A stretch of DNA of 64,000 nt from Malacoraja senta (taxonomy: Eukaryota), in the NCBI GenBank assembly GCA_038087875.1, contig CM075989.1, positions 21,392,001-21,456,000 on the forward strand, read 5' to 3'. The notes under the pieces were generated by a model that was not told the DNA's origin, made no database searches, and saw only the letters and a program-made list of their open reading frames with translations. Of the stretch, positions 24,031-56,675 are shown one piece after another. Position 1 is the stretch's first letter, and each line of letters begins with the position of its first letter. Both the position numbers and the translations under genes were made by a program.

Positions 24031-24488
24031 ACTTACAATGTTTCCATAGTTACTGCAAAGAGTATGACTGGTAGAGTTACTCCAAGGAGTGTGCATGGTG
24101 TACGTGCGGCGTTGGCGTGAAGTCATTTAGCTTTGCACTAACCCTGTGGTAACAGTGCACAGGTTCTGCAACAGCTTCATCCCCCAGGCCATAAGACTAT
24201 TCAACTCACAATCAAACCAATGCAAAAAACTTTCTTATACATTGCCACTTTTAAAAACTTTCCTTTTTTAACTATGCACATGAAGCACTTTTTATGGACA
24301 CACTAAGCACTTTTACTGATCGCTGTTACTTTGAAGAGTCAATGCAACGAAATTTCGTTCAATGTGCACTTTGTCTATGTGTATACCTGAATGACAATTA
24401 AAGTTAATTCATTCATTCACATACAGTTTAAATGTGATTGTTTGGTGATCAAATAACCCTGGAGAAAGTAAGTGAGCCTGGAGAAAGT

Positions 24489-24580
24489 CTGAAGAAGGGT
24501 TTCGGCCCGAAACGTTACCTATTTCCTTCGCTCCATAGATGCTGCTGCACCCGCTGAGTTTCTCCAGCATTTTTGTGTAC
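24489..24580 (+). mobile_element. 92-nt solo hammerhead-bearing Penelope terminal module
   Basis: CUGAAGAAGGGU(UUCG)GCCCGAAACGUU core; TSD cctgKagaaagt at 24477-24488 and 24581-24592. Confidence 0.75.
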
Positions 24581-24661
24581 CCTGTAGAAAGTAATGTCTG
24601 CCCAACTTGCTTTGCAGTCAACCCATTCTTGACACCTGACTCACAACTTAAGGAAAGTACT

Positions 24662-24970
24662 GTTTAGTTTCAATTAGTTTAGAGATACAGCGCGGAAACA
24701 GGCCCTTCGGCCCACCGAGTCTGCACCGACCAGCGATCCCCGCACGTTAACACTACCCTACACGCGCTAGGGACAATTTACGATTTTACCAAGACAATTA
24801 ACCTACAAACCTGTACGTCTTTGGAGTGTGGGAGGAAACCGGAGCACCTGGAGAAAACCCACGCGGTCCCGGGGAGAACCTACAAACTCCGTACAGAGAG
24901 TACCCATAGTCAGGATCGAGCCTCTGGCGCTGCAAGGCAGCAACTCTACCGCTGCACCACCGTGCCGCCC
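24662..24970 (-). mobile_element. HE1-like V-SINE
   Basis: Same structure. Confidence 0.85.
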
Positions 24971-25515
24971 ACATTGGTTCCAAATCAGTAATCTCTTTCA
25001 CTAGAACTTATAATTTGATTGTGATAGAATCATTAGGGCATTACTGCCACTGATTGCAAATCTAATGTAACTTTCTCTGCACTGATCTATCTATTGAAGT
25101 AGAACATTTCCTATTTACTTGCTTTGTTTGGAGTTTCAGGATCAAATTCTAGCTCCAGTGGTTTGAACCATTCAGTCACTGCTCCATGCCACCTTTCATT
25201 CATTTGTTCTTTGTACCTTTGTATACCTCTAGTTTCCTTCTCCCCTGACTCTCAGTCTGAAGAAGGGTCTCGACCCGGAACGTCACCTATTCCTTTTCTC
25301 CAGAGATGCTGCCTGACCCGCTGAGTTACACCTGCATTTTGTGTCTATCTTCGGTGTAAACCAGCATCTGCAGTTCCTTCATACATATTGAAACGCAACT
25401 ACATCTCCAGCATCCTGTTTAACATGGTGTGTGATGAGGAAGACAGTTGAATACTTTTGCAACGGATAAAATTCTGCAAATGCAAATATTGATTCTTAAA
25501 AGCAGTCTGATGTCA

Positions 25516-25816
25516 TTTAGTTAGTTCAGAGATCGCGGAAACAGGCCCTTCGGCCCACCAACTCCGCGTCGACCAGCGATCCCCGCACACTAACGCTATC
25601 CTACACACACTAGGGACGATTTACAAAAATACCACGCCAATTGACGTACAAATCTTTTCGCATTTGGAGTGTGGGAGGAATCCGAAGGTCCCGGAGAAAA
25701 CCCACGCAGGTAACGGGGAGAACGTACAAACTCCGCACAGACAGCACCCGGAGTCAGGATCACACCCAGGCCTCTGGCGCTGTGAGGCAGTAGCTTTACC
25801 GCTGCGTCATCGTGCC
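25516..25816 (-). mobile_element. HE1-like V-SINE
   Basis: Same structure. Confidence 0.8.
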
Positions 25817-53037: not shown

Positions 53038-53336
53038 GGGCAGCGCAGCGGTAGAGCGGTAGAGTTGCTGCCTTACAGCACCAGAGACCCGGGTTCGATC
53101 CTGACTACGGGTGCTGTCTGTACGGAGTTTGTACGTTCTCCCCGTGACCTGCGTGGTTTTTTAAAATCATCTCTGGTTTCCTCCCACACTCCAAAGACGT
53201 GCAGGTTTGTAGGTTAATTAAATTGTCCTTATTGTGTGTAGGTTAGTGTTAGTGTGCGGGGATCGCTAGTTGGTGTGGACTCAGTAGGCCGAAGGACCTG
53301 TTTCCGCGCCGTATCTCTAAACTATACTAAACTAAA
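53038..53336 (+). mobile_element. HE1-like V-SINE
   Basis: Same structure. Confidence 0.85.
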
Positions 53337-54242
53337 CAATACTAGTACAAAAATAAGGTCCCCAAGTCCATACAGTTCGGAACCTACATCATTTGAGACT
53401 ATGCCCTATAGTTTGAGGTGTCAATGTTTTGGGTTGAAGCTCAGCATTAAACATCATTGCTATGATGCCTCTTGCCTCCTTTGCATGGATCCATTCAGCC
53501 AGAGGTACGGAGCAATAGTCAAAGGCATGGATAGATCAGGACCAGGTCATAGCCTCCCAATGAAAGGACGTTCCTTTAGGATGGAGACGAGGAGGCTTTT
53601 CTTTAGGGTAGTAAGTCTATGGAATTCATTGCCGCAGAAGGCTGTGGAGGGCAAGTCAATGGATATTTTTTAAGGCAGAGATAGATAGTTCCTTGATTAG
53701 TGTCAGGGGTGTTAGGCATGGGGAGAAGGCAGTAGAATGGGATCTAGAGGGAAAGATAGATCAGTCATGATTGAATGGCGGAGTAGACTTAATGGGCCGA
53801 ATGGCCTAATTCTGCTCCAATCACTTCTGAATGATTGAAGAGAGTACAGACTACTACTTGTGAACGGTGCAGAAATTCCATCCGGATACTCACAGTGTTT
53901 GTTTTACCTTAAAATTAATAATGGAAGCAACTTGTGAAGGGAGGGGGTGTGAGGGGGGAACAATGGTCCCAGAAGATTACATTTATTACCTGTTAGACAG
54001 ATAAGGTCTGTGGTTTCATCACAGTTATGCTGAGGAGATATACCAGAACATAATCATTTCCTTTTACATGCTTCATTGTCCAATTCATTTACTTTCACTT
54101 CACTTCTTTTATTGATAGTTCTCATATTCCACAAATTATTAGAATCTCACATTCTGCAAATTATTAGATTGAATCCGACCTGATTTCTGAAATCTTTCAC
54201 TCGGAAAGTGACCTCATGATTTCAGAGCTTAAATTAATCTTA

Positions 54243-54546
54243 CGGGCAGCACGGTGGCGCAACAGTGGAGTCGCTGCCTCACAGCGCCAGAGACCTAGGT
54301 TTGACCCTGACTACGGGTGCTGTCTGTACGGAGTTTGTATGTTCTCCCCGAGACCGCGTGGGTTTTCTCCGGGTGCTCCGGTTTCCTCCCACACTCCAAA
54401 GACGTGCAGGTTTATAGGTTAATTCGTTTGGTAGAAACAAAAAATTGCCCCTAGTGTACTGTTAATGTGCGGGGATCGCTGGTTGGTTCGAACTTGGTAG
54501 GCCGAAGGGCCTGTTTCTGCGCTGTATCGCATAAACAAAACAAAAA
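54243..54546 (+). mobile_element. HE1-like V-SINE
   Basis: Same structure. Confidence 0.82.
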
Positions 54547-54793
54547 CGAATGCATTGAATAACGTTACAATTGATAAAGATTTCCGGTGAAACATTAAAA
54601 ATGTTTATATACCTCATTTCCTTGATGACTTGGTTATTAAAAACGGCATTGAACTGTTACACAACAGGGAGGGAAATCAAGATCCAGAGGACATAAGTTT
54701 AATGTGGGAGGGGAAAGTTTTCATCGGAACCTGAGAGGCAACTTGTTCACCCTGAGGCTGTCGAGTACATGGAGCAAGCTGCTAGAGGAGGTA

Positions 54794-54884
54794 CACAAAA
54801 ATGCTGGAGAAACTCAGCGGGTGCAGCAGCATCTATGGAGCGAAGGAAATAGGTAACGTTTTGGGCCGAAACCCTTCTTCAGAC
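54794..54884 (-). mobile_element. 91-nt solo hammerhead-bearing module inserted in a CR1 fragment
   Basis: 10-bp TSD agaggaggta at 54784-54793 and 54885-54894. Confidence 0.75.
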
Positions 54885-56675
54885 AGAGGAGGTAATTGAG
54901 GCAGGTACTATAACAGAATTTGAAAAACACTTGTTCAGGTACATGGAAAGGAAACGTTTAGAGGGATATGGGCCAAATAAGGGGCAAATTAAACTAACTG
55001 AGACTTCGATTTAGACTTAGATTGAGACAGTGCGGAAACAGGCTCTTCAGCCCACCGCATCTGCGTCGACCAGCGATCACCCGTAAACTAACACTATCCC
55101 ACACACTAGAGACAATTTTACAACTTACCGAAACCAATTAACATACACACCTGTAGGTCTTTGGAGTGTGGAAAGAAACCGGAGCAATTAGTTTAGAGAT
55201 ACAGCGCGGAAACAGGCCCTACCCTCCACCGACTCCGCACCGACCACGATCCCCGCACATTAACACTATCCTACACACACTCGGGACCAAAGCCAATTAA
55301 CTTACGTACCTGCACGTCTTTGGAGTGTGGGAGGAAACCGGAGCACCTGGAAAAAAAAACATGCAGATCACAGGGAGAATGTACAAACTCTGTCCAGACA
55401 GCACCAGAGGTCAGGATCGAACCCGGGTCTCTGGCACCATAAGGCAGCAACATCTGAACGGAACTGAACTGAACTGAACTGAATTAATGGGGCATCTTGG
55501 TTGGCATGGACAAGTTGGGCCGAAGGGCCTGTTTCTGTGCTGTGTGAATTCATGACTCTATGACTCCAGTAGTTCAGTTCTAAACCACAATTAAAAGGCG
55601 GGTGGAATTTGGCTTCGATCTCAGCTGTGCAAAGCTGTGGCTTGAAAAAAAAACACACAATTTAAGAAGAACCGCAGAATTAATTCCTTTCCAGACAACT
55701 GGAAGCCCACAGTTTGAGACGGATGTACATGTGGAGTTTCAGCTGGTAATGCAGTGTAGTAAATAGGCAGATTGAGAGAATATGACATTTCACATCCCTA
55801 ACAAAATGGCACTAGGCTTGTCGAGTGGAACATTTCTCCAAAGCAATGGGCAATCTGAATTGAATCCAAATGTTTAAAATTAACTTCATTTGTCCGATAC
55901 AGATTAATTTGCATTTTAAATTGAGAACTTATCCTTTTCATTGATTTTTCCACACTTTAATTCATTCAGACCTCTTGCTACATTAGCACATGCTTCTGCT
56001 TCCTCTCATCTTTATTTTACCTCCTGTATAGTGCATCTGTTGTTTGTTTTCAGTGATTTCCTTTGTAGTTCATTTTCAGTTGCCTGACTACATTTTGTGT
56101 TGTTGTTATTGCACCAGTGAATATTATAAATTTGGCAGGCAAACAGGATGATGTTGAGAGGCCTCCACAGCAATCCTTTTTGATTAATTTATTCTCTTCA
56201 CCCTAAGTGCGCTTTTATGCTGTAAAGATGCTATTACCCATGTGTTGGATTTGCAAATGCATGTTTAAAGGAATTATTAGAGACAAAGGTGTATTTACTG
56301 TTCATTAATGTCAATCCAGGTAGGAGCAGTCAGGCATTGTTTAAGAAGGGTGATGAGGAAGGGTCTCGACCCGAAACGTCACCCATTCCTTCTCTCCAGA
56401 GACGCTGCCTGTCCTGCTGAGTTACTCCAGCTTTTTGTGTCTCTCCTCAATTGTTTAAGATAGCAGTCTTAAAGTGTCCGAGAATCAGAGATTCATAATG
56501 TGAGAGACTCCTACGATACCAAGGCAGGCCCTTCAGCCCATTGGGTCTGTGCTCTCCTATCACTGATCTGCTGCACACAGCCTGTACTAATCCAATTTTC
56601 TGATGAAGGATCACAACCTTGAAACATCGTCTGTCCATTTCACCTCCATAGATGCTGCCTGGGCTGCTGAATCTA

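What the first reader, a model, noticed from the sequence alone, without database searches (positions are those of the whole stretch)
24477..54894. ~90-nt solo hammerhead modules with their own TSDs: a candidate minimal mobile ribozyme family
Seen: three insertions of 91-95 nt (24489-24580, 39721-39815, 54794-54884), plus a longer one at ~7909-8032, consist only of the hammerhead core and ~60 nt of downstream sequence. Each is bounded by an 8-12-bp direct repeat, and all begin almost exactly at (GT)CTGAAGAAG. Inference: either a defined non-autonomous, retrozyme-like unit mobilised by Penelope RT/GIY-YIG, or reverse transcription that repeatedly terminates at the ribozyme fold. The inserts span the predicted cleavage site, so the template would have been uncleaved, circular or multimeric.
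Basis: partly seen in the sequence, partly recalled or inferred. Interest (0 to 1): 0.72.

Follow-up and report, generated by a model that had tools for sequence, protein, structure and literature searches.

The report
Hammerhead-headed Penelope retroelement micro-insertions
These ~90-130-base inserts are very common short copies of the end module of a Penelope-type jumping gene in a likely skate genome, not a separate mobile ribozyme; their sharply shared start point likely marks where the element's RNA begins, which offers a way to test how these elements copy themselves.

Summary
The four inserts and their target-site duplications (TSDs) are real, but they are 4 of 44 segments of one repeat covering ~8% of the window. 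Two longer copies (23563-24029; 9150-9477) link the same module, through a pyrimidine-rich 3' UTR, to the end of a Penelope-like element (PLE) endonuclease ORF; its closest relatives are skate proteins with GIY-YIG and a Neptune-type zinc-finger linker. 3' ends are bimodal (21 at +86..102, 17 at +117..134, none between), the known PLE 'tail'. Twelve events are head-to-head pairs, nine with one tailed and one untailed arm. The 5' pile-up is real: 19 of 44 start at -10..+3 of the hammerhead core (about 3 expected, p~1e-11), and contig depth in related species steps up there. Copies span the cleavage site, 14 of 25 have damaged cores, and no unit-length tandem arrays occur, so a circular retrozyme is unsupported. 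Most likely: PLE reverse transcriptase primes internally at two sites just behind the ribozyme and runs off the 5' end of an uncleaved RNA; the start site itself is inferred, not shown. The element class is known; I found no paper describing the sharp 5' boundary.

The parts
24489..24580 (+). Solo untailed module, subfamily B (hammerhead core + ~62 nt); predicted cleavage site 24516/24517; TSD 24477-24488/24581-24592, outer repeat 24456-24471/24579-24594
   Evidence: one contig of organism B (run X2) appears to lack about 24158-24584 at the orthologous place (read from piece ends; not a clean empty site)
39721..39815 (-). Solo untailed module, subfamily A; perfect 11-bp TSD 39710-39720/39816-39826; one stem II mismatch
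54794..54884 (-). Solo untailed module, subfamily B, inserted in a CR1 3' fragment; perfect 10-bp TSD; core G12 changed to A
   Evidence: (paralogous uninterrupted site at 19734-19927)
7912..8032 (-). Solo tailed module, subfamily B, with a 9-nt internal deletion; TSD 7901-7911/8033-8043
23563..24029 (+). 5'-truncated PLE, subfamily B: C-terminal endonuclease ORF end (stop at 23822-23824), ~106-nt pyrimidine-rich 3' UTR, hammerhead module from 23931
9150..9477 (+). 5'-truncated PLE, subfamily A: degenerate endonuclease end (79% DNA identity to the B ORF end), ~190-nt 3' UTR, start of hammerhead
9983..10288 (-). Subfamily A copy with ~200 nt of 3' UTR, duplicated hammerhead start and untailed module
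25192..25385 (+). Subfamily A copy with ~70 nt of UTR, module and full tail
   Evidence: loose ends pile up behind 25380 and 25385
39026..39238 (.). Head-to-head pair with palindromic junction at the hammerhead start; arms end at +91 and +129; 18-bp TSD with 1 mismatch
46907..47109 (.). Head-to-head pair, arms end at +89 and +130; 10-bp TSD with 1 mismatch
59015..59303 (.). Head-to-head pair with 24-38 nt of UTR on each arm; arms end at +91 and +133; 15-bp TSD with 1 mismatch
62366..62630 (.). Head-to-head pair, perfect 14-bp TSD; holds a partial tandem in which the proximal 3' end (+96) is joined directly to position -3 of the next module
63056..63255 (.). Head-to-head pair, subfamily B; arms end at +94 and +129; perfect 12-bp TSD
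52314..52449 (-). Solo tailed module, subfamily A, 13-bp perfect TSD, 4-nt 5' microhomology and short 5' duplication
56347..56449 (+). Solo untailed module, subfamily A, 11-bp perfect TSD, 4-nt 5' microhomology and short 5' duplication
42244..42366 (-). Solo tailed module, subfamily A, 9-bp TSD with 1 mismatch

Best explanation
The inserts are short copies of the terminal hammerhead-plus-tail module of a Penelope-like element (likely Neptune clade), likely made when the element's endonuclease nicks the target and its reverse transcriptase primes internally at one of two sites behind the ribozyme and runs off the 5' end of an uncleaved RNA that likely begins just before the ribozyme core. Shown here: the module is the end of a PLE; there are two 3' ends ~40 nt apart; TSDs of about 8-18 bp; 5' ends cluster at the hammerhead start; the cleavage site is spanned. 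Taken from PMC11167929 (another PLE, in vitro): internal initiation at two sites that define the tail, nicking and extension of both strands, no need for ribozyme cleavage. Inferred: the RNA 5' end lies near position -3 (the sequence there resembles an initiator, consensus recalled); the cDNA end is attached by 2-4-nt microhomology; priming from one nick gives a solo module, priming from both nicks (one per site) gives the head-to-head pairs; the rarer long copies come from priming at the downstream copy of the module in ORF-containing RNAs.
For: ORF-UTR-module continuity at 23563-24029 and 9150-9477. P0001 relatives are skate proteins at 74-82% identity with GIY-YIG hits and CxC/CX4CxxC motifs; a 902-aa RT + GIY-YIG protein matches at 43%. 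3' ends of 44 segments: 21 at +86..102, 17 at +117..134, 0 at +103..116, 6 shorter; loose ends of contigs from three runs pile up at the tail end 25380. 9 of 12 head-to-head pairs have one tailed and one untailed arm, none two tailed, as described for PLEs (bioRxiv 10.1101/2021.04.23.441226, passages). 5' stop rate 0.075 per nt at +3..-10 against 0.006 and 0.009 on either side. All 7 TSD-bounded solo inserts join within -3..+7, 6 of 7 with 2-4-nt microhomology, tailed or not. One partial tandem joins +96 to -3. In related species summed contig depth at -19 is 0.76M/2.8M/0.036M against 17.5M/9.7M/0.66M at +22 (runs X1/X2/X15), and the ORF end peaks at 10-11M against >=45M summed over the three module copies (X1, X2). 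D. virilis Penelope starts transcription inside its pLTR from an internal promoter (PMC2377424, section 15).
Against: No RNA evidence: the start site was not observed, and no confirmed RNA run was laid. No full-length element of these subfamilies was seen, so the upstream copy of the module in an ORF-containing RNA is assumed from PLE architecture. Five segments match the UTR a few nt beyond -3 (-7 to -10) and ten extend further, so the boundary is not absolute. In D. virilis the start site lies upstream of an intron that ends at the hammerhead, not at the hammerhead itself (PMC2377424, PMC4209133). Arms of one pair are not independent, so the p-value is overstated. Depth of contigs is no copy number, comes from other species, and the window's UTR copies are diverged or low-complexity, which lowers upstream depth. 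The read-laying table of common begin/end places was empty.
Confidence: 0.6

Rival explanations
1. Same PLE origin, but the template is a long RNA and reverse transcription stops at the 5' edge of the hammerhead domain because of a fold or bound protein.
For: The boundary coincides with the 2-bp stem I strand; 6 of 10 copies cut at +103 are predicted to pair their 5' end with the +88..+104 region; PAc protein binds this region and assists the ribozyme (PMC11167929). Long copies exist, so some templates do continue upstream.
Against: A polymerase meeting a helix should stop on its 3' side; stops there are about ten times rarer. The closing helix is mostly lost when the tail is included, yet tailed copies stop at the same place. 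Folds are no more stable than shuffles.
Confidence: 0.2
2. Solo modules are themselves transcribed from an internal promoter and re-mobilised in trans, forming a SINE-like non-autonomous family about 95/130 nt long.
For: Modules outnumber ORF ends about 5:1 by depth; 24489 and 54882 are 91/92 identical and differ from the ORF-linked copy at 23933 (78-79/92); pLTR sequences alone can be mobilised in trans in rotifers (PMC3846280, passages).
Against: Contigs laid on the 24489 copy continue upstream into B-type UTR (36 contigs in X15, agreement 0.38) and downstream into the tail, so this variant is not confined to solo form; no flank transductions were noticed; both subfamilies have ORF-linked members.
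Confidence: 0.12
3. The boundary is a 3' splice site: an intron in the pLTR ends at the hammerhead, and processing there creates or favours the 5' end.
For: Both subfamilies have an 80-88% pyrimidine tract ending in CAG directly before the core; the D. virilis intron ends at helix I (PMC4209133).
Against: Spliced templates would carry a shared upstream exon; none lies between TSD and core in 7 solo inserts. No joint from the ORF end to the core is among the 15 best-supported joints shown (5797 not shown).
Confidence: 0.05
4. A retrozyme: a ~99-nt circular or multimeric RNA made by hammerhead cleavage and ligation and copied by rolling-circle reverse transcription.
For: Inserts span the cleavage site; the stem III palindrome can dimerise (4 bp); one +96/-3 junction exists; vertebrate retrozymes derive from pLTRs (bioRxiv 10.64898/2026.07.22.740005).
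Against: No unit-length tandem among 44 segments; ends are fixed rather than circularly permuted; a ribozyme-made circle would join at +28/+29, not +96/-3; stem I is only 2 bp; retrozymes carry canonical hammerheads in 150-450-bp tandem repeats (PMC7229834, passages).
Confidence: 0.03

Closest known systems
Endonuclease-positive Penelope-like elements, Neptune/Nematis type (pLTR, hammerhead, 30-40-bp tail, adjacent inverted copy)
   Same: C-terminal GIY-YIG-type ORF end followed by UTR and minimal hammerhead; two 3' ends ~40 nt apart; head-to-head inverted copies with the tail on one side; TSDs of ~8-18 bp; 5' microhomology.
   Different: Most copies here lack UTR and ORF and start within ~13 nt at the hammerhead instead of being variably truncated; density (~44 segments in 64 kb) is far above the thousands of minimal hammerheads per genome reported in PMC4209133; the module carries no ORF start codon at the core.
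PAc (Poseidon from Anolis), PMC11167929
   Same: Two internal initiation sites behind the hammerhead define the tail; distal end is AC-rich; uncleaved RNA is the template.
   Different: Different clade; in PAc the ORF starts in stem II; the main text read (parts 1-2 of 4) does not describe run-off micro-insertions with a fixed 5' end; supplementary figure S2 is a picture I could not see.
Dispersed minimal type I hammerheads of metazoan PLEs (PMC4209133)
   Same: Unpaired base before G10.1, palindromic stem III, short stem I (2 bp as in D. virilis), mostly single motifs 'probably related to truncated PLEs', some in opposite-strand pairs.
   Different: That paper gives no boundaries or TSDs and, in the parts read, no cartilaginous fish.
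Non-LTR retrozymes of animals (PMC7229834; bioRxiv 10.64898/2026.07.22.740005)
   Same: Non-coding, type I hammerhead, pLTR-related, dependent on PLE enzymes.
   Different: Retrozymes are tandem repeats with mostly canonical hammerheads that yield circular RNA; these inserts are single or inverted, with a minimal hammerhead and fixed PLE ends.

Membership tests
EN+ Penelope-like element | Module attached to an ORF ending in a GIY-YIG endonuclease | tested here: met
   23543-23824 ORF end, 74-82% to skate proteins with GIY-YIG hits; the fragment itself has no Pfam hit and lacks the GIY-YIG core, which is truncated
EN+ Penelope-like element | Telomerase-like RT upstream in the same ORF | tested here: inconclusive
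   No RT part in the window; relatives P0014, P0015, P0017 carry RT plus GIY-YIG at 43-61% to P0001
EN+ Penelope-like element | Hammerhead motif in the terminal repeat | tested here: met
   Core, stem II, palindromic stem III and 2-bp stem I read from the sequence; not detected by Rfam; activity untested
EN+ Penelope-like element | Optional 30-40-bp tail, on one end of inverted insertions | tested here: met
   Bimodal 3' ends; 9 of 12 pairs with one tailed arm
EN+ Penelope-like element | TSD of variable length | tested here: met
   14 of 28 events vs 7 of 400 random pairs; paralogous empty site
Neptune clade | CX2-5CxxC zinc-finger linker before the endonuclease | tested here: met
   Present in the closest relatives P0003, P0004, P0014, P0017, not in the window fragment, which is truncated; motif defined in PMC8557442 for Neptune and Nematis
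Neptune clade | Placement in an RT phylogeny with named Neptune elements | not testable with these tools
   No RT in the window and no named reference set
Non-LTR retrozyme | Head-to-tail tandem units each with a complete hammerhead | tested here: not met
   0 unit-length tandems among 44 segments; two partial same-strand adjacencies
Non-LTR retrozyme | Canonical type I hammerhead (long stem I, loop contacts) | tested here: not met
   Stem I is 2 bp in both subfamilies
Non-LTR retrozyme | Self-cleaved linear and circular monomer RNAs | not testable with these tools
   No confirmed RNA run listed
Non-autonomous SINE-like family | Own lineage copied from non-coding master copies | tested here: inconclusive
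   Two near-identical solo copies, but the same variant continues into UTR and tail in other species' contigs; whole genome not held

The most novel reading that the evidence does not exclude
In skates the hammerhead-to-tail module of a Neptune element is a self-contained ~95/130-nt RNA unit: it starts at its own initiator, dimerises through the ribozyme's palindrome without cleaving, recruits the dimeric PLE protein, and has amplified on its own to on the order of a million copies as solo and twin-primed inverted inserts. It would be among the shortest retrotransposons known, and the ribozyme would serve as a dimerisation and packaging signal rather than a cutter.
Probability: 0.15. Interest if true: 0.75.

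Novelty: new variant of a known kind. Interest (0 to 1): 0.43.

Why it matters
How PLEs make their tails, inverted ends and partial tandems, and what their hammerhead does, are open questions. Here dozens of TSD-bounded events per 64 kb record both priming sites and the stop point in vivo. They extend the in vitro internal-initiation result to a simple prediction: priming just behind the ribozyme of a 5' pLTR gives a strong-stop-like run-off cDNA, one nick gives a solo module and two nicks give a one-tailed inverted pair. If right, about 8% of this window, and likely a sizeable share of skate genomes, is a by-product of that step, and such copies would be abundant presence/absence markers. It does not add a new class of mobile ribozyme.

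Tried and rejected
No whole genome is held, so the genome-wide plot of ends could not be made. The core motif gave 0 exact matches in metagenome and viral contigs. Rfam found no hammerhead family; its miRNA hits at 59078-59198 and 61323-61446 are the head-to-head pairs. Single-strand folding does not favour the active hammerhead and 13 copies give no covariation above shuffles, as expected for a young repeat, so neither is used as support. Substitutions in core positions (6/182 non-CpG) are not clearly fewer than elsewhere (77/1243); no claim of selection is made. The look-up of sequencing runs: no RNA holder listed. Run X22 laid only 17 reads and X15 is probably DNA. The organism-B site for 24489 lacks about 427 nt including a neighbouring LINE fragment, so it is not counted as a clean empty site; empty sites for 39721 and 7912 were not tested. 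A ribozyme-cleaved 3' product as template was rejected: it predicts starts at +29, and no segment starts there. A stop at a lariat branch point was rejected: the branch-like motif (consensus recalled) lies only 7 nt before the acceptor. Recombination between repeats was rejected for 54794. PMC5785218 (Lunse et al.) is not held; I saw only its title in a reference list and a review's summary. Literature searches that found no description of the fixed 5' boundary or of this skate family; Repbase, Dfam and subscription papers are not covered, and the family may be catalogued there.
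Full report
Observation. The four inserts are at the stated places. Their flanking repeats are 12 bp with one mismatch (24489-24580), 11 bp perfect (39721-39815), 10 bp perfect (54794-54884) and 11 bp with one mismatch (7912-8032). For 54794 the host is a CR1 3' fragment, and an uninterrupted paralogue at 19734-19927 holds the 10-mer once, so this is a true target-site duplication. A flanking repeat scoring 8 or more was found for 14 of 28 events against 7 of 400 random position pairs; one more, at 19385-19563, is seen by eye. 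Positions below count the C of CTGAAGAAG as +1.

The set is much larger than four. The 27-nt core matches 20 places with up to 3 mismatches and none in shuffles. Alignment to family references built from the window gives 46 pieces, 44 after merging two split copies, about 8% of the window. There are two subfamilies about 85% alike.

The module is the end of a Penelope-like element. At 23563-24029 the subfamily B module follows a 106-nt pyrimidine-rich UTR and an ORF end. That peptide is 74-82% identical to proteins of Leucoraja and Rhinoraja, which points to a skate as host (inference). [quoted passage not shown] A 902-aa protein with RT and GIY-YIG matches at 43%. Subfamily A has the same layout at 9150-9477. 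A zebra-shark gene model reads through the endonuclease into a sequence that translates like the skate module, which suggests the same layout in sharks (inference from translation).

3' ends. Of 44 segments, 21 end at +86..102, 17 at +117..134, none between, and 6 earlier. Contigs of three runs have loose ends at the distal end. This is the PLE tail, which PMC11167929 (parts 1-2 of 4 read) traces to two internal reverse-transcription start sites. Twelve events are head-to-head pairs; nine have one tailed and one untailed arm, none two tailed arms, as described for PLEs (bioRxiv 10.1101/2021.04.23.441226, passages; PMC3846280, passages and discussion). One strand of the downstream hairpin is predicted to pair with either of two repeated partners, one before each 3' end; this is a lead only.

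5' ends. Nineteen of 44 segments start at -10..+3. Leaving out three that start beyond +60, the stop rate is 0.075 per nt there against 0.006 downstream and 0.009 upstream; about 3 were expected (p about 1e-11, overstated because arms of a pair are not independent). All seven TSD-bounded solo inserts join within -3..+7, six with 2-4 nt of microhomology, tailed or not. On 23400-25500, contigs of related species show single-copy flanks at depth about 20-90, the ORF end at up to 10-11 million, and the three module copies together at 45 million or more (X1, X2); at -19 depth is 3.5 to 23 times lower than at +22 (X1, X2, X15). The tool warns that such depth is no copy number, and diverged UTRs lower the upstream values, so this supports a step at the hammerhead without measuring it. 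One organism-B contig appears to lack about 24158-24584, which includes the 24489 insert but also a LINE fragment; it is consistent with absence there but not a clean empty site.

The ribozyme. The motif has the core, an extra base before G10.1, a 4-bp stem II, a palindromic stem III and a 2-bp stem I, as in minimal PLE hammerheads (PMC4209133, parts 1-2 of 4). Rfam does not detect it, folding does not favour it, and covariation is absent in 13 copies. Eleven of 25 copies pass a core pattern; 54882 has lost G12. All full modules span the cleavage site and no segment starts at +29, so the template was uncleaved, as for PAc in vitro. Activity is untested.

Mechanism. Most likely the PLE protein nicks the target and primes internally at +90 or +130 on an RNA whose 5' end lies near -3, runs off after about 95 or 130 nt, and attaches the cDNA end by microhomology. 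One primed nick gives a solo insert; both nicks, one per site, give the one-tailed inverted pair; priming at the downstream module of an ORF-containing RNA gives the long copies. The sequence at -5..+1 resembles an initiator (consensus recalled, not tested), Penelope has an internal promoter in its pLTR (PMC2377424, passages and section 15), and one partial tandem joins +96 to -3, as a template jump from the RNA end would. The RNA start is inferred. Rivals are a structural or protein block on a long RNA (0.2), solo modules acting as their own masters (0.12, compatible with the same chemistry), a splice acceptor at the same spot (0.05; pyrimidine tract plus CAG in both subfamilies, but no shared upstream exon), and a circular retrozyme (0.03; no tandem units; compare PMC7229834, passages, and bioRxiv 10.64898/2026.07.22.740005, parts 1-3 of 5).

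Novelty. The element class, tail, inversions and dispersed minimal hammerheads are known. Nine searches found no description of a fixed 5' boundary at the hammerhead or of this family in skates; repeat databases, subscription papers, bioRxiv supplements and the image-only figure S2 of PMC11167929 could not be seen and may hold it. An earlier unchecked AI note from another genome reached a similar reading; it was seen after my reading was recorded and is not independent evidence. Verdict: new variant of a known kind, interest 0.43.

Noticed in passing
window 31930-36274 (+): Near-intact CR1-type LINE: 450-aa ORF with GDSL esterase domain and 947-aa ORF with APE endonuclease and RT; a PLE head-to-head pair sits just behind its 3' end at 36510-36737.
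   Followed up: partly
window 9150-9477 (+) and 9983-10288 (-): Two long subfamily A copies face each other 500 bp apart and share private deletions in the UTR, suggesting one event or a local inverted duplication.
   Followed up: no
window 24456-24488, 8033-8053, 52438-52449, 56347-56356: Short tandem duplications of target or element sequence at the 5' junction of four solo inserts, suggesting slippage or repeated annealing during 5' attachment.
   Followed up: partly
window 62468-62497: Partial tandem joining the proximal 3' end (+96) directly to position -3 of the next module; single case.
   Followed up: partly
window 62094-62258 (+): A module copy whose interior has expanded into an 11-bp tandem repeat (a minisatellite born from the post-cleavage segment).
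   Followed up: no
window 9649-9710 (-): Weak Rfam match to the CPEB3/HDV-like ribozyme family (25 bits, E 0.024, below the gathering score), between the two long subfamily A copies.
   Followed up: no
window 22810-23146 and about 48970-49620: Elements with long terminal inverted repeats, MITE-like.
   Followed up: no
window 45534-46073 (-): 180-codon open frame without Pfam hit that may hold a host exon; gene not identified.
   Followed up: no
window 24674-24970 and many paralogues: A second very abundant short repeat; contigs often join PLE tail ends directly to its start (joints to 24674/24678), hinting at a shared or preferred target.
   Followed up: no
window 27510-27650, 56600-56670, 4440-4520: Older, diverged module copies that suggest earlier waves of related PLEs.
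   Followed up: no
protein P0014, last 30 residues: Zebra-shark gene model runs past the endonuclease into a frame that translates like the skate hammerhead module.
   Followed up: partly
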